Notes under the pieces: generated by a model
The model's input: the letters and a program-made list of their open reading frames with translations, nothing else
The model's database searches: none
Told to the model about the DNA's origin: nothing
Part shown: positions 13,188 through 44,958 of the stretch, in pieces
Position numbering within the stretch: position 1 is the stretch's first letter
How the letters are laid out: every line of letters begins with the position of its first letter
Assembly (NCBI GenBank): GCA_023665805.1
Contig: JAMPDJ010000010.1
Span: 17,453 to 81,452 of the forward strand
Origin: Bacteroides sp.
GTDB lineage: Bacteria > Bacteroidota > Bacteroidia > Bacteroidales > Bacteroidaceae
Length of the DNA: 64,000 nucleotides
Direction of reading: 5' to 3'
Position numbers and translations under genes: made by a program

Positions 13188-15470
13188 TTATTCGGTCGTC
13201 TGTGACGCGGACCCGTCGCGCACGCACCTCACGGCGCATCCGTATCTCGGCTGAAGCGAGTACTGGCTTCTGACCGTTCCCACGACACCGGCACTTCCCG
13301 AGGGCAGGCCCTTGTTGTGGTCGCTGTATTGGCCGTTGTCAGATGATGCCGTGCGCCACGCGAAATAGTAGAGCTGCGAAACGGCGCAGTCTATCGTGTT
13401 GGTCACGGCGCCGCAGCTCATCCAGCGGTACGAACTGATGCCGTATCCGTCGCGTGTCCCGCCGCCAATCACCTGTCCTGTCTGTGCAAAGAAGTTGCCT
13501 TCAGCGTCGTCGGCGTTTCTCTTCATGAAGATTCCGTATCCGTGCTGTTTCTTGCTGTCCGCGCTCATGCCTATGCGGTTCATGGTCACTCCCTTGGGCA
13601 GATAGCGTGTCGTGGAGCCGTCGGCGACGGCATCTGTCACGCAGCTTATGTTTTCGCGCAGGCTGGGATAGCTCTCGCTGCCGTCCGACGGGTTGGACAT
13701 GGACATGACTCCCTTCAACTGGTTGTAGTTCTTTTCCACGGGGATGAAGTAGGTATAGGCATAGTAGTTGGGGACGCGATATCCCACGGGCGACGGGTCG
13801 TAGATGGTCTTCACGTCGGTCCAGCCTTCCACGTTCCTTCCGCTGAAGCGTCCGTCGCCCCACAGCATGTCGTTGTGTTCATAGAGCCAGTCGGACACGC
13901 TTGCCGTGGAATAGAGGTCGATGAAAGCGGCCGGATTCCGGATGGCATACAGTATGGTGGCCTCGTCGGCCGCTGGTTTGAGTATGTTGTACTTGCCTGC
14001 CAGCAGGTCCGTCTCCTGTCCGTCGGCATCATAGTACTTGCCCGAGTTGGGGAACGGGTCCTTGCGGCCCCACTGGTATAGCATGGCGTTTATCACGCGT
14101 GCTTCGACGGATGCGTCCCGTCCGCCGGCTTGGGGACAACGTTCGGCATCCGTCGCTGGGAATGCACCCAGGTCGCGGTCCATCATCTGCACGGAACCGT
14201 AGGCGAGCGGCGTCACGGCCACCGTGCGTGTCTCGTAGGTGAAGTCCTGCGGCAGTGTGTCGCCCACTCCCCACACGTGCCAGCTCCAAAGGATGGTGCC
14301 GGCACTGTCGTAGACGGCTATCACGGCGTTGCCCACGTTGCCGGTGGTGGTGTAGTGCACGCGTCCGTCGCGCAGTTCCACCTTGCTCACGAAGCCGCTC
14401 ACGTCCTCCCACAGCAGTTTTGCCTCTGCGGGGTCGATGGCGGCATCCTCGGTGTGGAAGCCCGCGCCGGGGATGATGCCCTTCTGTCCGTTGCCTATGA
14501 CGGTGGCCTTGAAGTCGTGCTCTCCGGCGGTGGTTATCATGTAGCAGTTGGCCGTCTCCTCCGGTTCCTCCACATCGGGCAAGGCTTCCACTTCAGCATT
14601 GTTGTTCCTCAACACTTCGGCCGTGAGGGGAAGATTGTAGAACACACCTGCCTCAAAATCGGCAAGCAACTTGGTGGAAAACCGCACCGTGTGCCGGTCG
14701 GTAGTCAGCACAAAATCGGCTGTGCAATCCTTGTACAAGCCGGGAGCCACCACGGCATATGCCACAAGTGTCTCGGTGGTGGCGGGCGGGTTGGGCATTT
14801 TCACGGTCAGTGAACCGGCTGTCTCCACCGCTTGCAAGCCGCTGTCGATGTTATCGAGGTTGTAGGTATATAGCCCGGTCAGTGCCTTGTCTGCAACGGT
14901 CATGCTGACAGACGTCAGCATCTCGTCGGCAAGGAGGCCGTCGGTATCCTTCAAACTGATGTTGAGACGAAGCAGGGTAGCCATCTGCTTGAACCTCATA
15001 GTGTAACCACCGGTAGCCTTCTCTGCTGTAGCGGCCTTGAAGTCGTAGCGTGCCGGCGACTGCACATCGGCATATTCCTGTACGGCCGGGATTTCCACTG
15101 CAATGGATGTGCGCTCGGTGGCCGTCTCGCTGTAAGGATAATAAGCCGCCTGCGGGATGTCGTTGCTTTGCAATTTGCCCGTGAAGTCGGCACTGTTGGC
15201 CGCCTCAGTGTGGGTGGAAACAAAGCGGGCGTTGACGGTACGGGCACCAAATACGCCAATCTTGTCGCCGGGCATCCACTGCATCACCAGACTGCCATCG
15301 CCTGCCACGTCCCCTACGGATGTACGGGAACCTACCGACGAGATATGCTCTCCGGATGTGGCAGTTATTACAACAGGGTTTCCGGAAACAGACAAAGACT
15401 CCATGTCCTCGTTGCAGCCCGATACGAGCGCAACGAGGAGAAGAGTCATACATGATTTAGTTAAATTCAT
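13188..15470 (-). CDS. large surface lipoprotein with fimbrillin-like (Mfa_like_1-type) N-terminal domain
   Basis: 760 aa. Lipoprotein signal LLVALVSGCNE, a WMPGDKIGVFG...FTGKL pattern typical of fimbrillin-like proteins, and a C-terminal ...YGCAVRCVRD. The family assignment comes from recalled motifs only. Confidence 0.55.
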   Translation of the reverse strand: MNLTKSCMTLLLVALVSGCNEDMESLSVSGNPVVITATSGEHISSVGSRTSVGDVAGDGSLVMQWMPGDKIGVFGARTVNARFVSTHTEAANSADFTGKLQSNDIPQAAYYPYSETATERTSIAVEIPAVQEYADVQSPARYDFKAATAEKATGGYTMRFKQMATLLRLNISLKDTDGLLADEMLTSVSMTVADKALTGLYTYNLDNIDSGLQAVETAGSLTVKMPNPPATTETLVAYAVVAPGLYKDCTADFVLTTDRHTVRFSTKLLADFEAGVFYNLPLTAEVLRNNNAEVEALPDVEEPEETANCYMITTAGEHDFKATVIGNGQKGIIPGAGFHTEDAAIDPAEAKLLWEDVSGFVSKVELRDGRVHYTTTGNVGNAVIAVYDSAGTILWSWHVWGVGDTLPQDFTYETRTVAVTPLAYGSVQMMDRDLGAFPATDAERCPQAGGRDASVEARVINAMLYQWGRKDPFPNSGKYYDADGQETDLLAGKYNILKPAADEATILYAIRNPAAFIDLYSTASVSDWLYEHNDMLWGDGRFSGRNVEGWTDVKTIYDPSPVGYRVPNYYAYTYFIPVEKNYNQLKGVMSMSNPSDGSESYPSLRENISCVTDAVADGSTTRYLPKGVTMNRIGMSADSKKQHGYGIFMKRNADDAEGNFFAQTGQVIGGGTRDGYGISSYRWMSCGAVTNTIDCAVSQLYYFAWRTASSDNGQYSDHNKGLPSGSAGVVGTVRSQYSLQPRYGCAVRCVRDGSASQTTE

Positions 15471-15495: not shown

Positions 15496-18400
15496 CTATT
15501 TGATTATATCGCCTCCTTGCCCGTAAGAAGAGCCGGAATTGATGGAAGTACTGCTCTCGCCAAGCACATAGTCGCGGACGGGAATTACCACAAAGGGCTT
15601 TGATTCATTGTTAGTAGTGATAAACATTTGTAGTTCAGGGTTGTCATCTTTATGTCGCACAAAATACGGACGTTTTTCATTGCCCTCCATTCCTGAGTAG
15701 TATGTCCTGGATACGGTAAACGGCTCTAATTTATATCCTACACCACTTTCTGTGGATTTTATCAGCATCAGCATCAGCTCACGCTGATTAGGAATACGCC
15801 ACAAACCTTTGTCCGAACCGTCCGGATTCTCGTAATAGTCGGCACACAAGTTTTGTGTTGTAGCTTCAGTCAAGGTAAAGTTGCTTTTATCTACATTTGT
15901 AGCAATAATAGTAGATTTTGGTATTACCGTGGGATTTTCTTTTTTTTCATAGGTTAATTGCACATAGTTGCCATTATCTGCCAGGATATAAAGATTATCA
16001 TAATCTGTTCCTATAGTATGACTTGTCAACCCACCTTCCGGAAATACTTTATCTTCAGCAATACGCGCCTCTGTGTTATAATAATACCTCCTGCCAGTTT
16101 CACGCGTAATGTTCACATCAAAGGTAACTTTGTATTTGTAAGACAACAAATTCCACGTACGTTCACCTGTGACATTCGTAACACTCACCTCAGGTCTATA
16201 GTTATCTCCAGTCACTAAGTGACTTTTTGCCACCAAGAAAGCGTCCGGCAGTTTGTTGACCTCACTTTCCTGATTATGGTACTGGTACTCACCACGGAGT
16301 GTTCCGGAACGACGCAAGGCATTTGGGCCCAGGCCATTCACCGAAATAACACGTTTGCCGATTCCGTCTCCTCCGTCAAGCAGGGTAGACACGGTGCTGG
16401 TGGGGGCTGAAATTTCCTTCAACGTGCGGAAGCAGCGCACAAATTGCACAGCTTCACCGGTTTCGCTTGAATTGTACTTATACATACCGTAAGTGCCTTC
16501 GTTTGCCCAGAATGTGCGGTAATCGCCTTTCGTGCTGGTATAGTAGTTCTGATCGTTAGTCGGTCGCATGTCCATAGGCAACGTGTGGATGCCCGCCCAG
16601 ATACATTGGTGCTGGTACACAGAAGGGAGATACCAGCGGACTTCCTCATCGTCTACTATGTCATTGGCATTCAAGTCGCGGTTACGAGTCAACCAACGAT
16701 ATACCCCATAGTCATATTCTGATTTTAGTCTGTAATTGGTATAGTCCATCACTTCTGACCATCTCAGCTCTCCTCCGTGTTCTTCCCTTAGCTGTTGAAG
16801 AATGGCAAGCGTATTGAGACGTCCACGAGTCTGTGCATTGGCAGCAGGATCATCAGAATATAAATCACTACAGTCTTGATAAGAGTCGTTCTTAGAAGCT
16901 GCAAACACCACCTGTGTCTTATTGGCGTTATCCGCAGAGTTCTCCAATCCGAAAGGATTTTCCGCATTGTTCAAGTCGAACACCGTCTTGATGGACTGCT
17001 GGCGGATAGTGAAGATTGGAGTCAAGGTATAAGAACTGTTATTGTTGGTTTGGACACCTGTTGCAATGTTAATAATACGGTCAGGTACATTGACGAATTT
17101 GCTCAAATCGTTCTTGTATTTCTCATAATAGAACTCATTAGCAAAAATCTGGATATATACATTGGGGTCACTTTCTGTGGTGAAGAACAGAGCTTTGTTA
17201 TAATTAGCATTAGTAGTTCTATATTCACCGTTCTGTATAGCAGTAATCAAATCCTTCAATGTATATTTTGTGGCTTGATAGTATGACTGATAAGTTTTTT
17301 CGCTGGCACTTGCACAGAATTCCAGCCAGTTCGCTTCCTCTTCCGGAATGTCATTCACGTTGTTATACGTCTTATCAATGCCGGGAACACGCAGCTGAAT
17401 GGTGTAAAGATCCTTCATTGCATCAAGTGTGGCTTTAGGGATGCTGATAATGGTTTCGTCGTAGTGTGCATCGAGAGTTCTTACACTTGCTTCGTTACCG
17501 GCAACGATATTGCCCCATGCCCCGGGCTGATTGTCTGCATCGGTAGTGGCTTTGATAATGATATTATCCACACCGTTCACCGTCACATCGTATGTGTACT
17601 TCGTGTTGCGGCGCACGGTGAAGTTGTCGAAGGAACCGTTTTTGGAAATGTCGCCCAGATGTATTTTGTAATGCACATCTCCCGTCACGGTGCCATTGCC
17701 GTCTAACCCCGGTCCTTCATAGGAGCCATGCACTATGATATAAGTGCTCTTGTCAGGGGCATAAGTATACGTGTCGGCACCGTTCATATGCTCACGCATT
17801 GCAATTGATCCCGGATTGCCTTTGGCTTTCTGCACATTCTCGGGTATATAGAACTCTAAAGAATCCATTCTTACTCCGTTCACGGTGCTGTTGTAAAGAG
17901 GGAAATCGGTTCCGTCGCGGAACGCAGTACCTTCTTCAACACCGGACCAGGTAAGAGTGCCCGGGAATGTCCCGAACAATTCGCTTGCTCTCTCTTGGCT
18001 ATCTGTCGTTGCCCCGTCTTTGAATGTCCATCCGTTGCGTTCAAACAGTGTGGAGGTGCGGCAATAGTTATATATGTCCCACTTGTCGGGAACGAACTTG
18101 ACACCATTGCCATTATGGAATCTGAAGATGACCTTCGCATAAGAGCGACGCAACTGGAGGGGGAACTCCAACTTGTTTTGTCCTCCGGCCTCATCGGCAG
18201 TAAGAGAGAGTTGGGTCGTCTGTCCTTTGGCATCTTGATATTTTCCGGTAAGAAGGGCAGATGTGGCAATGATGTTGAAACGATCCGACATCTTCAGAAT
18301 GTTGTATTTGTCAATCTCGGCCTTGGTCATGTTCTGAAGGTCGGTGAGCTGTAAGTTGTTCCAGAAACCTTTGTTCCAGTTGGCAATGGCATAGATATAC

Positions 18401-18750
18401 CAGTTGCCACTGGTAAGGCCTGCCTCTTGCGGAATGGTGATACTGTACTTATACCAAGTGTCTTCTACCTTTATGGGATCTCCCAGTGATGCGGGCTGAT
18501 AGATGATGGGTTTGGAATTCTCCGACTTGTAAAACAAGAAAGCCAGATGTTCCACATTGGTTTCCACCTCGTTGGAGGCACGCGTATTCACCTGCGTAGG
18601 GGCAGAGGTAATCACATTAAGGTTAAGCGAAGCGGGGAGCCCTTCCACCACCGGCGGATTCACTAAACTTTCGTCGGTACATGCTGCAAACAACAGGCAT
18701 GCCGTCAGCACTTGAAATGCTTTAAGTGCAATTTTCTTGTTATATGTCAT
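15496..18750 (-). CDS. giant FimA/Mfa1-superfamily (type V pilin-like) surface lipoprotein
   Basis: 1084 aa. Lipoprotein signal LTACLLFAACTDE, then ...QVNTRASNEVETNVEHLAFLFYK, which resembles the Arg cleavage site and first beta-strand of type V pilins. A WRIPNQRELMLML motif lies in the C-terminal part. Confidence 0.55.
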   Translation of the reverse strand: MTYNKKIALKAFQVLTACLLFAACTDESLVNPPVVEGLPASLNLNVITSAPTQVNTRASNEVETNVEHLAFLFYKSENSKPIIYQPASLGDPIKVEDTWYKYSITIPQEAGLTSGNWYIYAIANWNKGFWNNLQLTDLQNMTKAEIDKYNILKMSDRFNIIATSALLTGKYQDAKGQTTQLSLTADEAGGQNKLEFPLQLRRSYAKVIFRFHNGNGVKFVPDKWDIYNYCRTSTLFERNGWTFKDGATTDSQERASELFGTFPGTLTWSGVEEGTAFRDGTDFPLYNSTVNGVRMDSLEFYIPENVQKAKGNPGSIAMREHMNGADTYTYAPDKSTYIIVHGSYEGPGLDGNGTVTGDVHYKIHLGDISKNGSFDNFTVRRNTKYTYDVTVNGVDNIIIKATTDADNQPGAWGNIVAGNEASVRTLDAHYDETIISIPKATLDAMKDLYTIQLRVPGIDKTYNNVNDIPEEEANWLEFCASASEKTYQSYYQATKYTLKDLITAIQNGEYRTTNANYNKALFFTTESDPNVYIQIFANEFYYEKYKNDLSKFVNVPDRIINIATGVQTNNNSSYTLTPIFTIRQQSIKTVFDLNNAENPFGLENSADNANKTQVVFAASKNDSYQDCSDLYSDDPAANAQTRGRLNTLAILQQLREEHGGELRWSEVMDYTNYRLKSEYDYGVYRWLTRNRDLNANDIVDDEEVRWYLPSVYQHQCIWAGIHTLPMDMRPTNDQNYYTSTKGDYRTFWANEGTYGMYKYNSSETGEAVQFVRCFRTLKEISAPTSTVSTLLDGGDGIGKRVISVNGLGPNALRRSGTLRGEYQYHNQESEVNKLPDAFLVAKSHLVTGDNYRPEVSVTNVTGERTWNLLSYKYKVTFDVNITRETGRRYYYNTEARIAEDKVFPEGGLTSHTIGTDYDNLYILADNGNYVQLTYEKKENPTVIPKSTIIATNVDKSNFTLTEATTQNLCADYYENPDGSDKGLWRIPNQRELMLMLIKSTESGVGYKLEPFTVSRTYYSGMEGNEKRPYFVRHKDDNPELQMFITTNNESKPFVVIPVRDYVLGESSTSINSGSSYGQGGDIIK

Positions 18751-18777: not shown

Positions 18778-18957
18778 TTAATCAAATGATACTTCCATGT
18801 CTTCTATAGGAATATAGTCCGGCACTTCCACATTAGGCTCCTTGTCTGCGGGTTTGATGCTGGCCTCTGATCCGCAAAGGTTGCCTTCCATCTCCACCAG
18901 AGTTTCCTTTGTGAGTGGAGACTCGTAGTCTTTCTTGGTTTCTTGTTCTTTTTTCAT
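18778..18957 (-). CDS. unannotated 59-aa acidic small protein, first gene of the pilin-like operon
   Basis: Below the cutoff of the ORF track. My translation reads MKKEQETKKDYESPLTKETLVEMEGNLCGSEASIKPADKEPNVEVPDYIPIEDMEVSFD*. ATG at 18957, TAA at 18780-18778, 27 nt upstream of the 1084-aa gene. Confidence 0.45.
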   Translation of the reverse strand: MKKEQETKKDYESPLTKETLVEMEGNLCGSEASIKPADKEPNVEVPDYIPIEDMEVSFD

Positions 18958-19399: not shown

Positions 19400-20695
19400 T
19401 TAAAGGTATATGGGAGCGAGTTGTTCTTGCAGCACGTAGTCATACACCGGTCGGATGGCAATTGTGTGCCCGTCCTCTTCGATATCTTCATATTGGTGGT
19501 CGGTCAGCAGCAGGAGCTGTTCACAGCGTGTTTTCTGCGCCACCATCAGCAGACCGGAAATTTCTCTTTTCCGCGTCTTGTCGTTGGTAATGTCATAGGA
19601 CACCTGGATGGCGAGCACCGTCCGATCATTGTCGCAGACCACGAAGTCGCACTCGCCCGAACGTTCGTTGTAATAATAGATGTCAAGTCCGAGTGGCTTG
19701 CATCGGCGCAGCAGTTCCAGGTAGACGATGGTTTCCAGTCGCCAGCCAAGGTTCTCCTTTGCAAATGCATCGGTACGCTTGTTCATCAGTGCCACGTCAA
19801 CGGGATAGATTTTCTCGCCGGTCATGCGCAGGCGGCTTTTCTGTGAGTATTTGCGTACCCTTAGTAGCAGGTATGCCTGGCAGAGATAGTTGACGTAGTT
19901 CCTGACGGTATGTTCTGAGCCGAAGCCGAACTGCTCTTTCAGAGACTTGTCGGCAATGATGGCTGGCGCAACATTCAGCAGGTGGTGCGCCAGCTGTTCG
20001 AACGCCGAACGGTGGACAATCTTGAAGCGTTGCTCGATGTCGCGTTGCAGGATGTTGTCTACCAGCCCGTCGATGTAGTCGCGTCCGTTACTAATGGTTT
20101 GCAGTTCGGGGAATCCTCCCTGGGCCAGATATTCGTCGAAAGCGGCCCGTCGTTGTGCCATCGCCAAGGTGGTCTGCAACCGTGTGTCTATCTGTTTCAG
20201 ATTGCAATATTCAGCGAATGAGAAAGGGTAGAGGGCGATGGCATGATGGCGTCCGGTGAGGTGTGTGGCAAGTTCGCCGCTCAGCAGTTTTGCGTTAGAG
20301 CCGGTAATCAGAATGTGCATCTGTTTGCGTAACAGCCTGTTTACGAACAGGTACCATTCGGGGATGTTTTGTATCTCGTCAATGAAGAGGTATTGGAAGC
20401 TTCCGTAAATCTTGTAGAGTACTTCCAAAACGTTGTTCAGCTCTTCCCCTTTCAAGTGAATCAGACGTTCGTCGTCGAAGTTGACATATGCGAACTTTAC
20501 TCCAGCCCCCATCAGCGCATTGTAGCACAAGGTGGACTTGCCACTACGGCGCACACCGATAACGACCTGTGCCTGTGTGCTTTCCAGATCTATCAGCTCT
20601 TCTTCTTTCCTCCGGCAGAAACGCTCGGACTGTCTCTGCAAGAGTTCGTCCATCTGGTCTGACAGGATAATTTCGAGTGTACGTTTGTCCATCAT
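19400..20695 (-). CDS. ATP-binding protein (AAA_14 / DUF4143-type)
   Basis: 431 aa with Walker A GVRRSGKST. The overall layout is typical of the widespread AAA + DUF4143 family. Confidence 0.8.
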   Translation of the reverse strand: MMDKRTLEIILSDQMDELLQRQSERFCRRKEEELIDLESTQAQVVIGVRRSGKSTLCYNALMGAGVKFAYVNFDDERLIHLKGEELNNVLEVLYKIYGSFQYLFIDEIQNIPEWYLFVNRLLRKQMHILITGSNAKLLSGELATHLTGRHHAIALYPFSFAEYCNLKQIDTRLQTTLAMAQRRAAFDEYLAQGGFPELQTISNGRDYIDGLVDNILQRDIEQRFKIVHRSAFEQLAHHLLNVAPAIIADKSLKEQFGFGSEHTVRNYVNYLCQAYLLLRVRKYSQKSRLRMTGEKIYPVDVALMNKRTDAFAKENLGWRLETIVYLELLRRCKPLGLDIYYYNERSGECDFVVCDNDRTVLAIQVSYDITNDKTRKREISGLLMVAQKTRCEQLLLLTDHQYEDIEEDGHTIAIRPVYDYVLQEQLAPIYL

Positions 20696-20741: not shown

Positions 20742-20872
20742 CCGTACAGACTGCGCTATTTTACTGTTTTCCACCTCGTAGACTGCGATAATTTACATGT
20801 TTTCGTCTCGCAGACTGCGATATTTTACACGTTTTGGGTCTCGCAGACTGCGATATTTTACATGTTTTGCAC
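20742..20872. repeat. four tandem copies of a 32-33-bp repeat
   Basis: Copies are ccgtacagactgcgctattttactgttttccac, ctcgtagactgcgataatttacatgttttcgt, ctcgcagactgcgatattttacacgttttgggt and ctcgcagactgcgatattttacatgttttgcac. There are no spacers. The array lies between the ATPase start (20695) and the wzc stop (20920). Confidence 0.9.
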
Positions 20873-20919: not shown

Positions 20920-23268
20920 TTACTGCTTCTTCTTCCTGTGATTTCCGTATCCGTAACCGTAACCATAGCTGTATCCGTATCCATATCCATATCCATAGCC
21001 GCGGTGGTGGGGATTCACTCCGTTGAGGATGAGCGACATGTTGTTCAGCTTGCCGTCGCGGTAGAGTTCCTCCATGTCGGGGAGCTGCCTGCGGTCGAGC
21101 TTGCCGGCACGCACCACGAAGATGGTAAGGTCGGAGATGCGGTTGGTGATGGTTGCGTCGGCTACGATGCCCACTGGCACGTTGTCCACGATGACGTAGT
21201 CATAGTGTAGGCGCAGCTCTGCCATCATTTCGTCCAGACGCCCATCCATGAGCAGTTCGGCCGGATTGGGAGCCACGGTGCCGGAGGAGATGATGTCGAG
21301 GTTGGGGAACTTCTCGTCGGTGTGGATAATGTCGTCCAGGCCTATGCTCTCGTCGGCAAGGAAGTTGGTCACTCCTGCGGGATGCTTGCGGTAGTGGCGG
21401 CTGAGTGTTCCCTTGCGTATGTCGAGGTCCACCAGCGCCACGCGCTTCTTGGTGAGCACGAGACTTATGGCTAGATTGCGTGAGATGAAGGTCTTGCCGG
21501 CACCCTCGTTGAATGACGTGAAGGTGATGACCTGCATGGGCTTGTCCTTCTTGGCCATGAAGGCCATGTTGGTGCGCAGGATGCGGAAGCTCTCGGAGAG
21601 CATGCCCTCTTCAGTGCTGGCGGCGAGGCCTGTCTTGGCCGCATCCTTGTCCTGCGGTATTTCGCCGAGGAAGGGTATGCTGACGGCTCCCTTGAGGTCC
21701 TTGCGGCTACGGACGCGCGTGTCCATGAACAATATCATGAGGAACACCACTCCGGGCACGGCCATGCCCGTGAGCAGTCCCAGCAGCAGGATGCGGTTGC
21801 GCACCGGGGCTATGGGTCCGGCGGGTCCGTCCACGCTGTCGATGGTGCGCGCGTTGTTGTCGGCCATGGCCTGGGAGAGCGCGTTCTCCTCGCGTCGGTT
21901 GAGCAGGAACATGTAGAGGGATTCCTTGATTTTCTGCTGTCGTTCGATGGAGAGCATCTGTCGTTCCTTGGTGGGTACGGTGGTGAAGCGCACCTGTGCC
22001 TGTTCCTGGCGGACGCGTGCGTCGTTGCGTTTCATGTTGATGCCTACGATCATGTTGTCCACGGCGCGGATGATGGATTGTTTCAGGGCGTGGATGGTGT
22101 TGTTGAGTTCCTCCACCACGGGGTTGTTCTCGCTGCTGTCGGCCAGCAGCTTGTCGCGCTTGAGCTTCAGCGCGTTGTATTGTCCTATCTGGCTTTCCAC
22201 GGCGGCGTCGCTGATGCCCGTGCCCGAGGGGATGAGGTCGCGGCTCTTGGTGGGGTCGGTGAGGTAGTCCTTGATGAACTGCGCCAGTTTCAGCTGGGTC
22301 TCCTGCTCCATGGCGTCGGCCTTGTGTGACTGTGCCTCGCCCATGTATTGTCCGGCCAGGGAGCCTATGTCCATGACCTGGTTGGTCTGCTTGAATGATT
22401 CCAGCTGGGTTTCCACGCCTCCCAGTTCGCGTTCGATGATCATGAGGCGTTCGTTGATGAACTCCGAGGTGTTCACGGCCACCTGGTTCTTGTCGTTGAT
22501 GGCTTCCTCGTTGTAGACGTTGACCAAGGTGTTGAGTATGTCCTCGGCGCGCAGGGGTGAGGCATCCTTGAGGGAGAGGACGAGGATGGAGGATTCGTCC
22601 TCCTCCTGGCGTATGCCCATGTTGCCCTGGAAGCGTCCGGCCACGGCGTTGAGGGGATTCTTGCATACGTGTATGTCGTGTCCCGTCCATGCGGGTCCCC
22701 AGTGGTCGGTGCCGGTGACGAGGATGCGTTCGCCTCCGACGGAGAGTGTGTCGTTGAGCTTGAGGTCGTAGGTCTCCTTGGCGGCGGGCAGGCCCTGGAT
22801 GTCGGACAGGCGGACCGTGGCCTTGTTGAGCGGCGTGACGACAAAGGATATGTGCCTCTCGGGCATGACGCCCGGGAAGGAGACGTTGACGGGAGACTGG
22901 TTGTATAGTTCCCGGGTGCGCAGGCCTTTCTCCACCCTGTAGTCCACGTCGGCGTGGAGACGCTGCACCACCTCGCGCATCAGACGCTTGGAGCGGAACT
23001 GGAGAATCTCGTTGGCCACGTTCACCTTGTTTATGTAATTGTCGTAGCGGTCGAGTCCTGCCGTGCTGGTCTTGTTGGACGGGTCCTTGATGATGACCGT
23101 GACGCTGCGGAAGAACACCACGGGTGACGTGGCGTAGTGGTACCATGCCAGTCCTCCGAACAGGAGCACGGATAGCACGAACCATTTCCACTTGGATAGC
23201 AGGTAGACGAACAGGTCGGCCAGATTGACGCTTTGGTCGGTATTGGAGGATAGAATGTTGTTTTGCAT
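20920..23268 (-). CDS. wzc: polysaccharide co-polymerase / tyrosine autokinase (Wzc/GumC-type)
   Basis: 782 aa with an N-terminal Wzz-like domain and TM segments, Walker A FNEGAGKTF, and a C-terminal Tyr cluster HRGYGYGYGYGYSYGYGYGYGNHRKKKQ. Confidence 0.93.
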   Translation of the reverse strand: MQNNILSSNTDQSVNLADLFVYLLSKWKWFVLSVLLFGGLAWYHYATSPVVFFRSVTVIIKDPSNKTSTAGLDRYDNYINKVNVANEILQFRSKRLMREVVQRLHADVDYRVEKGLRTRELYNQSPVNVSFPGVMPERHISFVVTPLNKATVRLSDIQGLPAAKETYDLKLNDTLSVGGERILVTGTDHWGPAWTGHDIHVCKNPLNAVAGRFQGNMGIRQEEDESSILVLSLKDASPLRAEDILNTLVNVYNEEAINDKNQVAVNTSEFINERLMIIERELGGVETQLESFKQTNQVMDIGSLAGQYMGEAQSHKADAMEQETQLKLAQFIKDYLTDPTKSRDLIPSGTGISDAAVESQIGQYNALKLKRDKLLADSSENNPVVEELNNTIHALKQSIIRAVDNMIVGINMKRNDARVRQEQAQVRFTTVPTKERQMLSIERQQKIKESLYMFLLNRREENALSQAMADNNARTIDSVDGPAGPIAPVRNRILLLGLLTGMAVPGVVFLMILFMDTRVRSRKDLKGAVSIPFLGEIPQDKDAAKTGLAASTEEGMLSESFRILRTNMAFMAKKDKPMQVITFTSFNEGAGKTFISRNLAISLVLTKKRVALVDLDIRKGTLSRHYRKHPAGVTNFLADESIGLDDIIHTDEKFPNLDIISSGTVAPNPAELLMDGRLDEMMAELRLHYDYVIVDNVPVGIVADATITNRISDLTIFVVRAGKLDRRQLPDMEELYRDGKLNNMSLILNGVNPHHRGYGYGYGYGYSYGYGYGYGNHRKKKQ

Positions 23269-23286: not shown

Positions 23287-24078
23287 TTATCTTCTGATTG
23301 CCCATACGATGGAGCATACGGCTGTGATGGCCGAGAGTATGCCAGTGATGTATTTCCAGCTGCGGTCTTCGCGGTCCTGCTTGCGGTACTTGGGTTCGAC
23401 GTAGACGATGTCGTTCTGCTGCAGATAGTAGCATGGGGAGCTGAAGAGGTCTTTGCTGCGCAGGTCGTGGACGTAGGCCACGCGTTCTCCGTCTTCCTCG
23501 CGGATGACCGTGACGTGGCTGACACGTCCCCGCGGGGATATGTCGCCGGCTTTGGCTATGGCCTCGAGCAGGGTGATGCGGTCGCCTTCCACGGTGAAGG
23601 TGCCTGTGCTGCCCACGGCGCCCAGCACGGAATATCTGAAGTTGAGGAACTCGAGCGACACGAGCGGGTCCTTGATGTATTTGCCTTCGATGATGCGATT
23701 GCGTATCATGGATGTGACCTCGCTCACTGTCAGTCCCTCGACATGCAGCTTGCCGAGGATGGGGAAGTCGATGTTGCCGTCCACGTCCACGCGGTATCCC
23801 CTCTTGGATGCGGAGGATTCGCTGACGGTGCCGCTGGCGGTCACCTGGAAGGCGCCTCCGTTGGCATTGAACGGGATGGCCAGTTCGGGGTTCTTGCTGC
23901 TGACGGTGATGTCAAGGCGGTCGTCGGCGTGCACCACGGCCTCGTGACGGAGGTCGGCTGGGTAGCCGTGACCGGGTTCCATGTCTTGGAGGTAGACGAA
24001 TTTTTTCGGCGAACTGCATGAAGCGAGAAATACGATGGCTGCTGCCAGCAGGGCCGAACGATAATGTTGATTTTTCAT
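23287..24078 (-). CDS. wza: polysaccharide export outer-membrane lipoprotein (Wza/BexD-type)
   Basis: 263 aa with lipoprotein signal AAIVFLASCSS, a Poly_export-like ADDRLDITVSS motif and an SLBB-like region. Confidence 0.9.
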   Translation of the reverse strand: MKNQHYRSALLAAAIVFLASCSSPKKFVYLQDMEPGHGYPADLRHEAVVHADDRLDITVSSKNPELAIPFNANGGAFQVTASGTVSESSASKRGYRVDVDGNIDFPILGKLHVEGLTVSEVTSMIRNRIIEGKYIKDPLVSLEFLNFRYSVLGAVGSTGTFTVEGDRITLLEAIAKAGDISPRGRVSHVTVIREEDGERVAYVHDLRSKDLFSSPCYYLQQNDIVYVEPKYRKQDREDRSWKYITGILSAITAVCSIVWAIRR

Positions 24079-24141: not shown

Positions 24142-25020
24142 TCAGGTGGCTAATCCTTCGAGGCAGCGGCGTGCGGCCTCGGCATCGGGCCGGCATTCCA
24201 TCAGCCCTATGGGGGCCAGGTCGGTTGCGCGTATCAGTGTCTCGTGGAGGGCATCCTGCAGACGCGTGTCCTGGCGGACGGCGGAGCAGGAGGGCAGGAG
24301 GGCGGCGAAGGCTTCCGGCCCGTCGAGGGGCAGGAAACGGTTGTCGGCGGACTGTCGCAGGCGCGCTATGCCCGCCACGGGCAGGGACTCGTTCTTGTAG
24401 CAGGGGGTCTTGCCGCTCCAGGGGGTGCCGTGGGCCGTGAGCGTATTGTCCTGTATGCGCAGGACCGGATTGTCGTCGTTGAGCAGGCTGCAACCCGGGA
24501 AGGTTGCCATCCATTGCCTGGCGTGGGTGCTCTTGCCGGTGCCGCTTTTGCCAAGGAACAGGTATCCGCGTCCCTCCAGACAGACGCATGAGGCATGGAT
24601 GGAGATTCCGCCGTGCACGAGAACGGCCTGGGCGTACAGGATGCGGAGCATGGACGACAGCACCATGCCCAGGGAGGGGTCGGATGGCAGGAGGAAGGCG
24701 GTGGCGCGGGAGAAGCGGGAATCCACGGTCATGGTGTGCACGGTGTTGCCGTAGTCCATTTCTATCCGGTATCCGCCGGTGCTCCGCAGCAGGCGCACGT
24801 GCCCCATGTCGTTGGACGACTCGTCGAGCAGTTCATGACGTTTCCCGTCGTTGGAAAAAGGCAGCGTGACGGCGGCCAGCCGGAAAATCTGTTTCCCCTC
24901 GGGTCGCGATCCGCACAGGAACGGACGGAAGGAGGGGAGCAGCGTTTCCGCATCCCATCCGCAGGGTAGGGTGACAGAGAATAATAGCCCCGCCACGCTG
25001 AAGAAGTATTCGTCAGTCAT
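24142..25020 (-). CDS. HPr-kinase-related (HprK-like) P-loop kinase
   Basis: The track ORF 24142..26052 is an over-extended GC shadow. The in-frame ATG at 25020 gives MTDEYFFSVAGLLFSV..., with Walker A LFLGKSGTGKSTHARQW as in the HPr kinase C-terminal domain. Confidence 0.7.
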   Translation of the reverse strand: MTDEYFFSVAGLLFSVTLPCGWDAETLLPSFRPFLCGSRPEGKQIFRLAAVTLPFSNDGKRHELLDESSNDMGHVRLLRSTGGYRIEMDYGNTVHTMTVDSRFSRATAFLLPSDPSLGMVLSSMLRILYAQAVLVHGGISIHASCVCLEGRGYLFLGKSGTGKSTHARQWMATFPGCSLLNDDNPVLRIQDNTLTAHGTPWSGKTPCYKNESLPVAGIARLRQSADNRFLPLDGPEAFAALLPSCSAVRQDTRLQDALHETLIRATDLAPIGLMECRPDAEAARRCLEGLAT

Positions 25021-25040
25021 TGTCAACAATAGCAGTTTGT

Positions 25041-26156
25041 CTATGCCTTGCGGCCAATACGGGCCAGATTTCCAAGAATGAGGTTCATGGAGGCCCAGAA
25101 CGCTTCCTTGGGAGCGTAGGCGCAAGAGAAGTCGCGCCGCCACCAGAAGGACAGGAGCGTGCGCAGTTTGCGTTGCCATCCTGTCCGCGAGGTCCGGCCG
25201 TGGGGTTCGGCGTGTTGTCCGAAATTGCCCCCGTCCAGTATGATGCGCATCAACCTGGGGGACGTGCAGGCCTCGGTGTAGATGTAGGGCAGGTCGTAGT
25301 AGTCGAGTCCGAGATGCTCGGTGAGGAGCGTGTGGAGCTGCTTGTTCCATTCGAGCAGGCCGGCACGCTTGTAGGCTTTTTTCATTTCCTCGGGAGAGTA
25401 GCGGCCGCGCAGGGTGTGGTAGGCACGTGCCATGTCGCAGAACTGCCTGAGGCCTATGCCGTGGCCCATCATGTGCTTTAGCAGGTGTGTGTTGAGCAGC
25501 AGCAGGCATGGCAGGGGAGAGGGCACGAGGAGGGAACCGGGACGGCCGTTGCCGGAGGGCAGCGTATTGAACCCGTGCCTGCGTATCAATGCGGAAAGGT
25601 ATCCTTTCAGACATGGGTCGTAGATGTCGAACAGACGGGTATGGTGCTCTACCTCCACACCATGCCAGTCGTAGCAGAAGCTTCCGTCGGGCCGTGGCTC
25701 CGGACGGCATCCGGCCTGTCGCATCAGCCGGGCGGCCGCGCGTTCCTCCTCCGTGGAGGGGAAATAGAGATCGATGTCGCCGCATTCGCGCAGCATGGGG
25801 TATTCGTAAAAATCGGCCACTCCCTGCCCCTTCAGCAGGACGGGATGCAGGCCGCCCTCCTGCATCAGCCGCATCAGGCTGTCGACCGCCGCGTCCATCT
25901 TCATGTTCTGCCGTTCGATGCTGTCGGCCTTGGCCATCCAGCGTATCATCAGGTCGTCGCCCGGCAGCAAGGAGTCCTGCAGATGGTGCAGGCCGCGCCA
26001 TACGATGCCCGATACCGTCTGGCGCACGGCCATGCGGTACACGGTCCACCACTGGGCGGAGGTGAGGGGAAAGGGGGACAGGTTGTCAGGTTCCGTCTCC
26101 CACAGTCCGGCGCGCAGCAGGCTGAACAGGGCGTTATGTTCCCGTGAAAGTTTCAT
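25041..26156 (-). CDS. nucleotidyltransferase family protein (NTP_transf_5-like, uncharacterised)
   Basis: In-frame ATG at 26156 gives MKLSREHNALFSLLRAGLWETEP...HPVLLKGQGVADFYEYPMLRECGDIDLYF, with the GDIDL nucleotidyltransferase-type acidic motif. An ATGA overlap joins it to the upstream PqqD stop. Confidence 0.7.
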   Translation of the reverse strand: MKLSREHNALFSLLRAGLWETEPDNLSPFPLTSAQWWTVYRMAVRQTVSGIVWRGLHHLQDSLLPGDDLMIRWMAKADSIERQNMKMDAAVDSLMRLMQEGGLHPVLLKGQGVADFYEYPMLRECGDIDLYFPSTEEERAAARLMRQAGCRPEPRPDGSFCYDWHGVEVEHHTRLFDIYDPCLKGYLSALIRRHGFNTLPSGNGRPGSLLVPSPLPCLLLLNTHLLKHMMGHGIGLRQFCDMARAYHTLRGRYSPEEMKKAYKRAGLLEWNKQLHTLLTEHLGLDYYDLPYIYTEACTSPRLMRIILDGGNFGQHAEPHGRTSRTGWQRKLRTLLSFWWRRDFSCAYAPKEAFWASMNLILGNLARIGRKA

Positions 26157-26437
26157 ATCAGTCCCATTCTTTTCCATTCCTCCAGCTGGCGTTCCACATC
26201 GCGGAGGGCACGTTCGTATTCCACCTTGTATGCTCCGCACAGGCTGTAGGCAAGTTCCTCGGGAGTGTGTCCATCTCCCTCGCAGATTCTCTGCCAAAGC
26301 CATGCGGCGGTCTCGTTCAGGCTGTATACGGTGGTCAGGTTCACGCAGTTGTCGGAAGATTTTACAAGCATGTACTTGCGGCCTATCTTGTGAAGCTTGA
26401 GGCATGCTTTGGGAACGAATTTGCTATTGGATGTCAT
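26153..26437 (-). CDS. PqqD-family protein (RiPP recognition element-like peptide chaperone)
   Basis: ATG at 26437 gives MTSNSKFVPKACLKLHKIGRKYMLVKSSDNCVNLTTVYSLNETAAWLWQRICEG...ELAYSLCGAYKVEYERALRDVERQLEEW. The size and pattern are typical of PqqD. Confidence 0.65.
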   Translation of the reverse strand: MTSNSKFVPKACLKLHKIGRKYMLVKSSDNCVNLTTVYSLNETAAWLWQRICEGDGHTPEELAYSLCGAYKVEYERALRDVERQLEEWKRMGLI

Positions 26438-26466: not shown

Positions 26467-27132
26467 TTAGAACTTCTTGCCGAGAAGGATGGAGCATGAG
26501 GTGAGGAAGACAATCTTGGTGTCAATCCACGGAGAGGCGTTGTATAGGTAGTCCAGGTCCATCCTCAGGCGTTCCAGCATCTTCTCCATAGTGTCGGTGT
26601 AACCGTTGTAGAGCGTGGCTGCGGAGAAGATTCCGGGACGCATCTGGTAGAGCAGTTCGTAGTCGGGATTTATGGCCTTGATTTGTTCCACGAAGTAGGG
26701 ACGCTCCGGGCGATAGCCTACGGCGCTCATCTCCCCCTTGAGCACGTTCCACAGCTGTGGCAGCTCGTCCAGATGGTGCTTTCGCAGGAAAGAGCCTACT
26801 CGGGTCAGGTGCTTGGTGTTTTCTCCTGTACAAAGTGCCGGGGTGCCTCCTGCTTCGGCTCTTGTATCCATGGAACGGAACTTGTGTATGGTGAAGATTT
26901 TGCCATGGTATCCGATACGGTCTTGGTTGAAAATGGCTGGTCCGTAGTCGTCAAGCTTGATGGCGATGTAGATTATCAGGAAGAGCGGTGAGAACAGGAT
27001 TAGTCCTGCCAGAGAGAATACGATGTCGAAACAACGTTTTGACAGGAGGAACGCAGGGGAAGCTGCGATTTGCCTGCGGCGGGGCTGCGTACACATGGCA
27101 TCAGGCATAGGTCTTAGGTTCTTTTCTTTCAT
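26467..27132 (-). CDS. undecaprenyl-phosphate sugar-phosphotransferase (bacterial sugar transferase family, initiating enzyme)
   Basis: 221 aa with motifs [30 protein letters not shown]. Confidence 0.92.
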
Positions 27133-28235
27133 AGGTCAGTATATATATCCAGTAAGTTTTCTATCATCTTGTCTCTCGTGAACAGATTGCGGTAGCGTTG
27201 CTCCGCACGTCCGGAGTATTCCTTGTAGACCGTCTCGTTTCCGGTGATTGCCATGATGGCCTCCGCCAGTTCCCTGGCATTGCGTGGGGTGACGTTCAGT
27301 CCCGACACGCCATGTTTGTTGACCCATGCCACGCCCGAATGCGGTATGCGTGTGGCCACTACGGGCTTGCGGCACGACATGGCCTCGACCTGTACTATGG
27401 CGAAAGCCTCGGTCTTCTGTATGCTGCTGAGGCAGAACAGTGTGCAGGCCCTGTAATAGGCAGGCAGTTCCTCGTCGGGAATGCGTCCCAGCAGTTTCAC
27501 CCTGTCGGCCACGCCCAATTGTTCTATCTGTGTGGTGAGTTTGCTTCCCAATGGACCGGAACCGCCTATCAGGACCACATAGTCGTTGCCGAGGTGGCTC
27601 GCGGCCTCTATAAGATACTTGTATCCTTTGTACTCCACCAGTCGCCCGAGGGAGAAGATGATTTTCTTGTCCGGATACCTGTTTTGCAGTTCTTCCGCCA
27701 TCGTGTGGGAGGAAGAAACCCGTGTTATGCCTATGGGAAGGCATTTGATCTTGTGCTGCACCCCTGACAGGTGTGGCGATTCGGCCGTGTAGACCGGCGT
27801 GGTGCCGAGAATGACATCGGCACGCCGCAGGAGCCATTCCTGCAGTGGGCGGTAAAGTCGCAGCAACGCTTTCTGCTTTTCTATGTCGCTGTGCCAGTGC
27901 AGTACCACCTTGCCCTTGTAGCCGGAGAGGAACAGGGCGAGGCATGCCATGGGGTCGGGGTGGTGCACGTGGATGATGTCATAGTCCTTGCACCTTTTCC
28001 TCAGTGATACGACCATGGATGGTGAAATCATGGTGGCGGCCACTTTACGCAGCGTACGGCAGCCTATGAGCCGTGCGTGCCGGTTGATGTCCGTGACCCG
28101 TGAGCCTCCATGCGACAAGGCGCACAGCATGTCGCAGTCCACGCCACGTTCCGACAGTCCTACCGTCAGGTCGTACATCACTTTCTCCACTCCTCCACGG
28201 ATGGGGTAGAATTTGCCGAGTTGAAGGATTTTCAT
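27129..28235 (-). CDS. glycosyltransferase family 4 (GT-B)
   Basis: The track start at 28331 is TTG. ATG at 28235 gives MKILQLGKFYPIRGGVEKV.... An ATGA overlap joins it to the downstream sugar transferase start. Confidence 0.85.
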   Translation of the reverse strand: MKILQLGKFYPIRGGVEKVMYDLTVGLSERGVDCDMLCALSHGGSRVTDINRHARLIGCRTLRKVAATMISPSMVVSLRKRCKDYDIIHVHHPDPMACLALFLSGYKGKVVLHWHSDIEKQKALLRLYRPLQEWLLRRADVILGTTPVYTAESPHLSGVQHKIKCLPIGITRVSSSHTMAEELQNRYPDKKIIFSLGRLVEYKGYKYLIEAASHLGNDYVVLIGGSGPLGSKLTTQIEQLGVADRVKLLGRIPDEELPAYYRACTLFCLSSIQKTEAFAIVQVEAMSCRKPVVATRIPHSGVAWVNKHGVSGLNVTPRNARELAEAIMAITGNETVYKEYSGRAEQRYRNLFTRDKMIENLLDIYTDL

Positions 28236-28362
28236 CTTTTTTAGGACCGGTGACTTTGTTGCATGATGACGTATTATGCCGGAACCGTTCCGCCGGATAC
28301 GGTCTTCCAAATTGTTATCGTGAGTATCCAAACGTCAGGCAATATATTTTGGGGGAGGACAT

Positions 28363-44916: not shown

Positions 44917-44958
44917 ATTTATAACCTCCTTTTCCTGTTTTTCTTTTTTTAAGTGCAA

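What the first reader, a model, noticed from the sequence alone, without database searches (positions are those of the whole stretch)
24142..26437. PqqD(RRE)-nucleotidyltransferase-HprK-like kinase cassette embedded in the export end of a capsule locus, with no visible peptide substrate
Three co-directional genes sit between the initiating sugar-phosphotransferase and wza/wzc:
- a 94-aa PqqD-like protein;
- a 371-aa NTP_transf_5-like nucleotidyltransferase, whose start overlaps the PqqD stop by ATGA;
- 20 nt further downstream, a 292-aa protein with an HPr-kinase-type P-loop (GKSGTGKST).

Established knowledge:
- PqqD domains are RiPP recognition elements that bind leader peptides.
- HprK-like kinases and nucleotidyltransferases are the tailoring enzymes that phosphorylate and then glycosylate the C-terminal Ser of some lasso peptides (paeninodin and pseudomycoidin-type clusters, from memory).
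- An 'HPr-rel-A system' (PqqD family plus HprK-related kinase) has been defined bioinformatically next to proteobacterial EPS/exosortase loci without a known function.

In this window there is no lasso cyclase, leader protease or obvious precursor ORF, and the cassette shares the high GC of the conserved export genes rather than the low GC of the variable GT island. I infer that the module acts on a protein or peptide (or a polysaccharide end) connected with capsule export or chain-length control. The substrate and role are unknown, and I consider this the best candidate for an undescribed system in the window.
Basis: partly seen in the sequence, partly recalled or inferred. Interest (0 to 1): 0.8.

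Follow-up and report, generated by a model that had tools for sequence, protein, structure and literature searches.

The report
Peptide-phosphorylating cassette in capsule locus
Three genes inside a gut Bacteroidota capsule-export locus look like the peptide-binding, kinase and nucleotidyltransferase parts of the recently described 'linear polyphosphorylated peptide' pathway, and their likely 59-residue substrate is encoded 5 kb away in the same locus, which would extend a pathway reported as restricted to Bacillota and link it to surface-polysaccharide export.

Summary
The three genes exist exactly as described, on the minus strand: PqqD/RRE 26153-26437, NTP_transf_5 25041-26156, HprK/PEPCK-fold P-loop kinase 24142-25020. 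They sit between the initiating sugar-phosphate transferase and wza/wzc.

The statement 'no visible peptide substrate' is wrong. A conserved 59-aa ORF (18778-18957, minus strand) lies downstream of wzc. It belongs to an unannotated family of at least 773 proteins with invariant Y-x-x-P and Glu, and a Ser at Y+20 in 92%.

In relatives the full block is GTs-PGT-PqqD-NTase-kinase-Wza-Wzc-peptide-lipoprotein(s)-OmpA-S24/SpI-like peptidase-MsbA-like ABC exporter. The same maturation genes plus peptide and lipoprotein also occur without any EPS genes.

This gene set and leader motif match the LPP RiPP family (Popov et al., Nat Commun 2026). That family was shown in Bacillota to polyphosphorylate a core Ser and to cleave the leader with an SpI-like peptidase, and it also lies in capsule loci. 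The authors called it restricted to Bacillota.

The window lacks the peptidase and the exporter.

Verdict: a Bacteroidota variant of a known kind. Biological role is unknown. The cassette is not a member of the HPr-rel-A, SynChlorMet or lasso systems.

The parts
26153..26437 (-). PqqD-family RiPP recognition element (94 aa), the LppB/B1-like leader-binding chaperone
   Evidence: Pfam PqqD is above the gathering score. A family profile hits only lasso/LPP RREs in the PDB: TfuB1 1.1e-7, PbaB1 2.1e-4, TbiB1 1.1e-3, LppB 6.4e-3. LppB N33, D70, Y60 and the Trp after C39 align with N41 (invariant), D80 (at least 90% conserved), Y70 and W48.
25041..26156 (-). NTP_transf_5 nucleotidyltransferase (371 aa), the LppN/PsmN-like tailoring enzyme
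   Evidence: Pfam PF14907 E=7.8e-35. The G-x-G...GDIDL motif and other residues are invariant across 44 homologues. The model has pLDDT 91.3 and gives only distant Pol-beta NTase fold matches: MenT, ANT(2'')-Ia, CCA-adding enzymes.
24142..25020 (-). HprK/PEPCK-fold P-loop kinase (292 aa; Pfam ScmC family PF27840), the LppK-like enzyme
18778..18957 (-). Candidate precursor peptide ('pep', 59 aa): MKKEQETKKDYESPLTKETLVEMEGNLCGSEASIKPADKEPNVEVPDYIPIEDMEVSFD. Y11/P14 form the YxxP motif, E24 is the invariant Glu, and S30 is at the position of the Ser conserved in 92% of the family.
   Evidence: ORF. The family was detected in 33 related loci and comprises 773 database proteins without annotation. 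Gene callers found the identical product on 20 contigs. Five peptide-anchored look-ups all return the cassette.
15496..18750 (-). Lipoprotein (1084 aa; DUF4906, Lcl_C-like) starting 27 nt after pep. A lipoprotein gene follows pep in 31 of the 33 related loci where pep was found.
13188..15470 (-). Fimbrillin-like (Mfa_like_1) protein, 760 aa
11963..13159 (-). OmpA-family protein (398 aa), the conserved end of the block. Relatives continue with an S24/SpI-like peptidase and an ABC exporter; here a Fic gene follows.
23287..24078 (-). Wza-type outer-membrane polysaccharide export protein
20920..23268 (-). Wzc-type chain-length regulator and BY-kinase with a (YG)n tail
26467..27132 (-). Small Bac_transf phosphoglycosyl transferase, which directly precedes PqqD in class A loci
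27129..28331 (-). GT4 glycosyltransferase, conserved next to the cassette even in Elizabethkingia
19400..20695 (-). AAA_14/DUF4143 ATPase. This is a strain-variable insertion between wzc and pep and not part of the system.

Best explanation
The trio is the RRE (LppB-like), nucleotidyltransferase (LppN-like) and HprK-like kinase (LppK-like) of a Bacteroidota version of the Linear Polyphosphorylated Peptide (LPP) RiPP pathway. Its substrate is most likely the 59-aa peptide encoded at 18778-18957.

Proposed mechanism:
1. The PqqD domain binds the peptide's N-terminal leader through the invariant YxxP motif. This is inferred: the Asn and Asp that hold the Pro kink and the Tyr hydroxyl in LppB and TfuB1 are conserved here.
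2. The kinase phosphorylates, probably repeatedly, a Ser just past the invariant Glu. Ser30 is the candidate. This is inferred by analogy to LppK acting on core Ser3.
3. The NTase adds a further group, such as hexose or a nucleotide, to that phosphate. This rests on analogy to PsmN; LppN activity itself has not been demonstrated.
4. In most relatives an S24/archaeal-type SpI-like peptidase then removes the leader and an MsbA-like ABC transporter exports the acidic product. Both genes lie at the far end of the same block in those relatives. They are absent from this window, so here those steps are either done by unlinked genes or do not occur.

The pathway is a fixed component of a larger block: glycosyltransferases, PGT, Wza, Wzc, the peptide, surface lipoproteins and OmpA. 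Its product therefore most probably serves surface-polysaccharide or surface-structure biology. How it does so is unknown.
For: **Shown here**
- Domain identities and intact catalytic motifs.
- A PqqD family profile matches only lasso/LPP RREs in the PDB. NCBIfam lasso_PqqD models are the top hit for 27 of 28 members.
- The key leader-binding residues are conserved.
- Peptide family, n=144 unique sequences: Y..P in all, Glu at Y+13 in 144/144, Ser at Y+20 in 133/144, and an acidic C-terminal part with median charge -8.5. No signal peptide.
- The full architecture ending in S24 and ABC is seen in L009, L013, L028, L031, L038, L039 and L087-90.
- The same genes plus pep and lipoprotein occur without any EPS genes in L050, L055, L058 and L077 (L068 and L071 look the same on short contigs).
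- Among such standalone loci, pep is present in 4 of 6 with the NTase and 0 of 10 without it (Fisher p=0.008).
- The S24-like family keeps Ser (G.SM), His (HR) and Asp (GDGN) and hits the archaeal-type signal peptidase model at E=4.8e-11.
- The ABC transporter is most similar to MsbA.

**Published (PMC13381572)**
- The LPP core is an SpI-like LppS, the RRE LppB, the HprK-like LppK, the NTP transferase LppN, the MsbA-like LppD, and a precursor with leader motif YxxPxVLxHQxIxFETxxS.
- LppK polyphosphorylates core Ser3, and LppS cleaves after T-1 only with LppB present.
- These clusters sit in capsule loci.
Against: - No S24-like peptidase or ABC exporter is found in the 64-kb window (best E values 0.14 and 0.55), nor next to the locus in five strains of the species.
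- The leader motif differs from LppA in spacing: Glu at Y+13 against Y+14, Ser at Y+20 against Y+18.
- The RRE profile is closer to actinobacterial TfuB1 than to LppB.
- In the largest pep subfamily the C-terminal part is itself well conserved, which is less typical of RiPP cores.
- Pep is nearly always followed by a lipoprotein gene, so it could belong to that operon instead.
- Loci in Elizabethkingia, Pedobacter and Sphingobacterium, and NTase-less standalone loci, show no pep within 10 kb.
- No binding or modification has been demonstrated for any Bacteroidota component.
Confidence: 0.65

Rival explanations
1. The conserved small ORF is not the substrate. It is a small acidic protein of the downstream fimbrillin-like lipoprotein operon. 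The trio would then act on an unlinked peptide or on a protein of the export machinery, such as the Wzc tail.
For: - In 31 of 33 loci, pep is followed within a few hundred nucleotides by a lipoprotein gene.
- The C-terminal half is conserved in the major subfamily.
- Cassettes in Elizabethkingia, Pedobacter and Sphingobacterium, and ten NTase-less standalone cassettes, have no pep within 10 kb.
- The pep profile has no PDB match.
Against: - The invariant YxxP, Glu and conserved Ser parallel the experimentally defined LppA leader.
- Pep has no signal peptide, yet it travels with a cytoplasmic RRE, peptidase, kinase and exporter in two different gene orders, including loci with no EPS genes.
- Pep presence correlates with the NTase.
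Confidence: 0.15
2. The kinase and NTase modify the polysaccharide or its lipid-linked precursor, for example by adding a phospho-substituent or nucleotidyl group or by terminating the chain. PqqD would serve only as a scaffold.
For: - The cassette is wedged between the PGT and Wza in about 45 loci.
- PGT and PqqD are almost always adjacent.
- The NTase fold resembles enzymes that nucleotidylate small-molecule hydroxyls, such as ANT(2'')-Ia.
- LppN showed no activity on the peptide in the published heterologous system.
Against: - The same kinase, PqqD and NTase occur in loci with no polysaccharide genes at all (L050, L055, L077).
- The PqqD keeps the peptide-binding residues.
- The homologous LppK and the lasso kinases are proven peptide Ser kinases.
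Confidence: 0.1
3. In this species the pathway is a decaying remnant. With the peptidase and exporter lost, the trio and pep no longer yield a functional product.
For: - No S24 or ABC gene is found in the window or in five strains. A Fic gene occupies their usual position, and variable ATPase genes are inserted between wzc and pep.
- L097 shows that partial loss does occur: its kinase and S24 are missing.
Against: - All four ORFs are full length.
- The kinase and the NTase each have 99%-identical database counterparts, and the pep product is identical on 20 contigs.
- Catalytic motifs are intact.
- The next relative, L006 (65% identity), also lacks an adjacent S24/ABC pair yet keeps everything else, which suggests a stable variant or unlinked partner genes.
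Confidence: 0.1

Closest known systems
Linear Polyphosphorylated Peptide (LPP) RiPP clusters of Bacillota (Popov et al., Nat Commun 2026;17:6633; PMC13381572)
   Same: [quoted passage not shown]
- No cyclase.
- The precursor has an N-terminal YxxP...E..S leader and no signal peptide.
- The cluster is embedded in capsule/EPS loci.
   Different: - The phylum is Bacteroidota, whereas the authors state that LPP is restricted to Bacillota.
- The maturation genes are split into two groups that bracket Wza-Wzc-pep-lipoprotein(s)-OmpA.
- The leader motif differs (YExPxTxxTxVELExGFMxAS) and the spacing is shifted.
- The peptide is always paired with a surface lipoprotein gene.
- In this window the peptidase and exporter are absent.
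- No biochemistry has been done.
Paeninodin / pseudomycoidin-type phosphorylated (and glycosylated) lasso peptide clusters
   Same: - The RRE (B1), the HprK-like kinase acting on a Ser hydroxyl, the nucleotidyltransferase that adds hexose to the phosphate, and an ABC exporter.
- The RRE is most similar to lasso B1 proteins.
   Different: - There is no Asn-synthetase-like cyclase and no transglutaminase-like B2 protease in the window or in related loci.
- The product would be linear.
HPr-rel-A system (NCBIfam TIGR04352 HprK-related kinase A with TIGR04353 PqqD family chaperone)
   Same: The same pairing of a PqqD chaperone with an HprK-related P-loop protein.
   Different: Scores are far below the curated cutoffs: 19.1 against 200, and 17 against 35. 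The lineage is different.
SynChlorMet cassette protein ScmC (TIGR04249; Pfam PF27840 ScmC)
   Same: This is the best-scoring curated model for the kinase-like protein (E=1.7e-10). The precomputed Pfam family is PF27840. ScmC also partners a PqqD homologue.
   Different: The score is below the cutoff (40.7 against 125). No radical-SAM/SPASM maturases appear in the locus gene lists.
HPr kinase/phosphorylase and ATP-dependent PEP carboxykinase
   Same: The P-loop kinase fold and signature motifs.
   Different: No significant full-length sequence match (TIGR00679 scores 18 against 240). The genomic context has no HPr or gluconeogenesis genes. The database name 'phosphoenolpyruvate carboxykinase' is a misnomer.

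Membership tests
LPP RiPP family (PMC13381572) | A discrete RRE (PqqD-like) that recognises a YxxP leader | tested here: met
   Pfam PqqD is above the gathering score. The family profile hits LppB (9x8z_B) and lasso B1s. LppB N33, D70 and Y60 align with N41, D80 and Y70. Binding itself was not tested.
LPP RiPP family (PMC13381572) | An HprK-like kinase (LppK) | tested here: met
   HprK/PEPCK fold and motifs. Orthology to LppK was not tested because no LppK sequence was available.
LPP RiPP family (PMC13381572) | An uncharacterised NTP transferase (LppN) | tested here: inconclusive
   An NTP_transf_5 gene is present and overlaps the RRE gene. Whether LppN belongs to the same Pfam family could not be checked.
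LPP RiPP family (PMC13381572) | An archaeal-type SpI-like leader peptidase (LppS) | tested here: not met
   Absent from the 64-kb window (best E=0.14) and from five strains' loci. Present at the end of the syntenic block in most relatives with enough sequence, with Ser/His/Asp conserved and TIGR02228 E=4.8e-11.
LPP RiPP family (PMC13381572) | An MsbA-like ABC exporter (LppD) | tested here: not met
   Absent from the window (best E=0.55). Present in relatives, where the top NCBIfam model is MsbA.
LPP RiPP family (PMC13381572) | A precursor of 35-200 aa with a conserved N-terminal YxxPxVLxHQxIxFETxxS motif and a variable C-terminus | tested here: inconclusive
   The 59-aa ORF has invariant YxxP and Glu and a conserved Ser, but the consensus and spacing differ. 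No direct alignment to LppA was possible.
LPP RiPP family (PMC13381572) | No macrolactam cyclase and no B2 protease | tested here: met
   No Asn_synthase or transglutaminase hits among the window ORFs scanned or in the locus gene lists.
LPP RiPP family (PMC13381572) | Polyphosphorylation of a core Ser | not testable with these tools
   This requires mass spectrometry of pep co-expressed with the kinase.
Lasso peptide biosynthetic cluster | An Asn-synthetase-like macrolactam synthetase (C) and a leader protease B2 | tested here: not met
HPr-rel-A system | Proteins pass the TIGR04352 and TIGR04353 cutoffs | tested here: not met
   19.1 bits against 200, and 17 bits against 35.
SynChlorMet cassette | ScmC equivalog score, together with radical-SAM/SPASM partners | tested here: not met
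   40.7 bits against 125. No Radical_SAM genes appear in the related locus gene lists.
Wzy-dependent capsule/EPS locus | PGT, glycosyltransferases, Wzx flippase, polymerase-like membrane protein, Wza and Wzc | tested here: met
   Bac_transf, GT2/GT4 genes, Polysacc_synt 42229-43779, a 430-aa membrane ORF at 30603-31895, Wza and Wzc.

The most novel reading that the evidence does not exclude
The phosphorylated peptide could be a working part of polysaccharide assembly or export, and not a free bioactive RiPP. One version: the (poly)phospho-Ser mimics a polyprenyl phosphate and is glycosylated by the NTase or the adjacent PGT, giving a peptide-primed or peptide-capped glycan. Another: the exported acidic peptide couples Wza/Wzc export to the co-encoded fimbrillin-like lipoproteins. 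This would explain why LPP-type cassettes sit in capsule loci in two unrelated phyla, and why in Bacteroidota they bracket wza-wzc.
Probability: 0.15. Interest if true: 0.9.

Novelty: new variant of a known kind. Interest (0 to 1): 0.6.

Why it matters
- The LPP pathway was defined only in 2026 and reported as confined to Bacillota. Its role is unknown and its nucleotidyltransferase is unexplained.
- I find the same gene set and a YxxP-leader peptide in hundreds of Bacteroidota species. At least 594 matching stretches were found in GTDB representatives, and at least 7,992 kinase homologues in the protein collection. These include abundant gut Prevotellaceae and Bacteroidaceae.
- The genes occupy a fixed position in a Wza/Wzc polysaccharide locus, next to surface lipoproteins.
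- The link between phosphopeptide maturation and capsule loci therefore looks cross-phylum and functional, not incidental.
- Genetically tractable Bacteroidales hosts become available for finding the role and the missing NTase substrate.
- An unannotated peptide family of at least 773 members becomes a concrete target for mass spectrometry.

Tried and rejected
- **Membership tests that failed.** HPr-rel-A A/B, SynChlorMet and bona fide HprK/P were all tested with NCBIfam and scored far below cutoff.
- **Structures by sequence.** The NTase gave nothing significant. Fold search gave only distant Pol-beta NTases and no informative close neighbour.
- **Peptide profile against the PDB.** No hit. 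This was intended to catch LppA or lasso leader chains.
- **Family libraries for the small ORFs.** NCBIfam on two relatives' pep and Pfam on the window's pep returned no family.
- **Literature.** A search on NTP_transf_5/PF14907/ScmC returned only irrelevant 'SCMC' papers. Searches on 'RRE-containing Bacteroides capsular polysaccharide' and 'PqqD Wzc' found nothing relevant.
- **Missing partners in the window.** Family HMMs for the S24-like peptidase and the ABC exporter found none.
- **Peptide in other locus types.** No pep was found in Elizabethkingia/Pedobacter/Sphingobacterium-type loci or in NTase-less standalone loci, even at E<=200.
Full report
**Observation**

The reported span holds three co-directional minus-strand genes.
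- A PqqD-family protein at 26153-26437, 94 aa. Pfam PqqD scores 46.4 bits against a cutoff of 23.4.
- An NTP_transf_5 nucleotidyltransferase at 25041-26156, 371 aa, scoring 121 bits against 31.2.
- A 292-aa P-loop protein at 24142-25020.

The flanks are a small Bac_transf phosphoglycosyl transferase (26467-27132), Wza (23287-24078) and Wzc (20920-23268). GC content is 0.61-0.62 across the cassette and 0.34-0.40 in the glycosyltransferase island.

Curated profiles support the 'HprK-like' call only weakly. Hpr_kinase_C gives E=3.5e-3. The best NCBIfam model is ScmC at 40.7 bits against a cutoff of 125. HprK_rel_A scores 19 against 200. Motifs and fold are clear, however. His142, GKSGTGKST, LLNDDNP and GTPWSGK are invariant in 34 homologues. 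A pLDDT-94 model matches PEPCK and HprK/P with Foldseek probability 1.0. The closest database protein is 99% identical, comes from a Paraprevotella sp., and is mis-named 'phosphoenolpyruvate carboxykinase'.

**Distribution and synteny**

The kinase-like protein has at least 7,992 homologues in the protein collection. The 80 best are essentially all Bacteroidota: Bacteroidales, Sphingobacteriales and Elizabethkingia. I annotated those loci with the window's proteins as queries and found three architectures.
- **Class A** (about 45 loci, including the window): GT4-PGT-PqqD-NTase-kinase-Wza-Wzc.
- **Class B** (Pedobacter, Sphingobacterium, Elizabethkingia, a Dysgonomonadaceae MAG): S24-like peptidase-PqqD-NTase-ABC exporter-kinase-Wza-Wzc.
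- **Class C** (many Bacteroidales): a standalone kinase-S24-like peptidase-PqqD-(NTase)-ABC exporter cassette among unrelated housekeeping genes, with no polysaccharide genes.

The peptidase is small and has no N-terminal transmembrane segment in the sequences read. It keeps a Ser (G.SM), a His (HR) and an Asp (GDGN), and it hits the archaeal-type signal peptidase I model. The ABC protein is an MsbA-like half-transporter.

**The missed substrate**

Gene lists for relatives showed a 53-66-aa gene just after wzc. The window has its homologue at 18778-18957 (minus strand, 59 aa). It lies 27 nt upstream of a 1084-aa lipoprotein gene and is separated from wzc by an inserted AAA_14/DUF4143 ATPase gene.

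An HMM built from these peptides detects the family in 33 of the first 85 sequences searched (84 loci plus the window), with E down to 1e-20. A profile search finds 773 database proteins. None of those listed carries a Pfam domain, and the few that a source names are called 'hypothetical' or 'uncharacterized'. NCBIfam finds no family for two relatives' peptides, and Pfam finds none for the window's.

In 144 unique sequences:
- Tyr and Pro of a YxxP motif are present in all.
- Glu at Y+13 is invariant.
- Ser at Y+20 is present in 92%.
- 90% carry an [S/T/G][W/F][D/E/Q/N] motif within the last 25 residues.
- The C-terminal part is strongly acidic.

There is no signal peptide. Five look-ups anchored on independent peptide family members all returned the cassette upstream. 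They also revealed the complete class A block: GTs-PGT-PqqD-NTase-kinase-Wza-Wzc-peptide-lipoprotein(s)-OmpA-S24-like peptidase-ABC exporter. The peptidase and exporter of classes B and C are therefore also part of class A, at the other end of the block.

The peptide and its lipoprotein also sit next to class C cassettes that have no EPS genes, in a different order. Examples are pep-lipoprotein-kinase-S24-PqqD-NTase in L055, and a divergent arrangement in L050, L077 and L071. Among class C loci with enough flank, the peptide is present in 4 of 6 with the NTase and in 0 of 10 without it (p=0.008).

**What is known**

A full-text search for the YxxP leader motif led to Popov et al., Nat Commun 2026 (PMC13381572). 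They define 'Linear Polyphosphorylated Peptides' (LPP) in Bacillota. Their findings are:
- The core is an archaeal-type SpI-like peptidase (LppS, Ser/His/Asp), a discrete RRE (LppB), an HprK-like kinase (LppK), an uncharacterised NTP transferase (LppN) and an MsbA-like exporter (LppD).
- The precursors are 35-200 aa with the leader YxxPxVLxHQxIxFETxxS.
- Experimentally, LppK places up to four phosphates on core Ser3.
- LppS cleaves after T-1 only when LppB presents the leader.
- Y-16 and P-13 are essential for binding.
- LppN showed no activity.
- The final product and the role are unknown.
- The authors state that LPP and paeninodins are restricted to the Bacillota.

The Bacteroidota system has the same six components and no cyclase. 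The invariant Tyr, Pro, Glu and Ser of its peptide parallel LppA Y-16, P-13, E-2 (Y+14) and S3 (Y+18), with shifts of one to two residues.

A profile of the Bacteroidota PqqD family hits only four PDB sequences at E<=0.01. All four are lasso or LPP RREs, including LppB (9x8z). In that alignment:
- LppB N33, which fixes the kink at the Pro, aligns with N41 (invariant).
- LppB D70, which hydrogen-bonds the leader Tyr, aligns with D80 (at least 90% conserved).
- LppB pocket residue Y60 aligns with Y70.

**Mechanism proposed**

The steps, with their basis, are:
1. PqqD binds the YxxP leader of the 59-aa peptide (inferred).
2. The kinase phosphorylates a Ser just beyond the invariant Glu, probably Ser30 (analogy).
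3. The NTase elaborates the phosphate (analogy to pseudomycoidin PsmN; unproven even for LppN).
4. In most relatives the S24/SpI-like peptidase removes the leader and the ABC transporter exports the product (analogy).

In this window the last two genes are missing. HMMs of both families find nothing. Five strains of the species all end the block with OmpA followed by Fic and DsbD genes. The four genes that are present are full length with intact motifs. The kinase and the NTase each have 99%-identical database counterparts, and the peptide product is identical on 20 contigs. A functional pathway with unlinked partners, or a peptide that stays uncleaved, therefore seems more likely than decay. 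This remains open.

**Rivals**

- The peptide could belong to the lipoprotein operon only.
- The enzymes could act on the glycan instead of a peptide.
- The pathway could be a remnant in this species.

The standalone EPS-free cassettes, the conserved peptide-binding residues and the published biochemistry argue against the first two. Intact ORFs argue against the third.

**Classification and novelty**

The cassette is not a member of the HPr-rel-A, SynChlorMet, lasso or HprK/P families. Cutoffs or defining genes are not met in each case.

It works like an LPP cluster and most likely is a divergent relative of one. In this window two LPP core genes are absent, and orthology to LppK, LppN and LppS could not be tested. 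I therefore rate it as a new variant of a known kind.

The new points are:
- the phylum;
- the very wide distribution in gut Bacteroidales;
- the split arrangement that brackets Wza-Wzc;
- the obligatory pairing of the peptide with a surface lipoprotein, often fimbrillin-like;
- the previously unannotated peptide family.

The repeated, cross-phylum placement in capsule loci suggests a real functional tie to surface polysaccharide. That tie remains to be found.

Noticed in passing
window 20747-20870: A 32-bp tandem repeat of 3.8 copies (84% matches) lies between the wzc stop and the inserted ATPase gene. Two exact 21-mers occur where none is expected by chance.
   Followed up: partly
window 19400-20695; L092 7535-9546: The wzc-peptide intergenic gap is a strain-variable insertion site. 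It holds an AAA_14/DUF4143 ATPase here and in L091, and an AAA_15/AAA_21 ATPase plus a 235-aa gene in another strain of the same species.
   Followed up: partly
window 10967-11860 (+): A Fic/HTH_17 gene on the opposite strand, in a lower-GC stretch, sits where most relatives carry the S24-like peptidase and ABC exporter.
   Followed up: partly
window 20920-21000 (Wzc C-terminus): The Wzc protein ends in a long (YG)n tail, GYGYGYGYGYSYGYGYGYGNHRKKKQ. At the DNA level this is encoded by a 6-bp repeat.
   Followed up: no
L071 1104-3065 (-): In a Bacteroidales MAG the gene after the small peptide encodes a protein with a eukaryote-type ubiquitin domain (E=1.6e-16) fused to BspA-type leucine-rich repeats.
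   Followed up: no
L087 12826-15423: The second lipoprotein of the block is a fimbrillin-like (Mfa_like_1) domain fused to a CotH kinase domain. The contig carries a pep gene named in Phocaeicola coprophilus records.
   Followed up: no
L097 5443-7575 and 12454-15521: This locus variant lacks the HprK-like kinase gene and the S24-like peptidase but keeps PqqD, the NTase, the peptide and the ABC exporter.
   Followed up: no
L054 6466-14078 (Elizabethkingia meningoseptica); L048; L060: Flavobacteriia and Sphingobacteriia carry peptidase-PqqD-NTase-ABC-kinase directly upstream of a Wza/Wzc pair, with no detectable YxxP peptide within 10 kb. In Elizabethkingia a second Wza/Wzc pair (the recX-capD capsule locus) follows 5 kb downstream.
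   Followed up: partly
window 43990-49573: The upstream edge of the low-GC glycosyltransferase island carries a PDDEXK_2 transposase-like gene, an AAA-ATPase_like/PDDEXK_9 gene and a tyrosine integrase. This is consistent with the variable part of the locus having been exchanged horizontally.
   Followed up: no
P0001 and P0104 (homologues of window 24142-25020): Public records name this kinase-like family 'phosphoenolpyruvate carboxykinase'. The resemblance is at the level of fold and P-loop only.
   Followed up: yes
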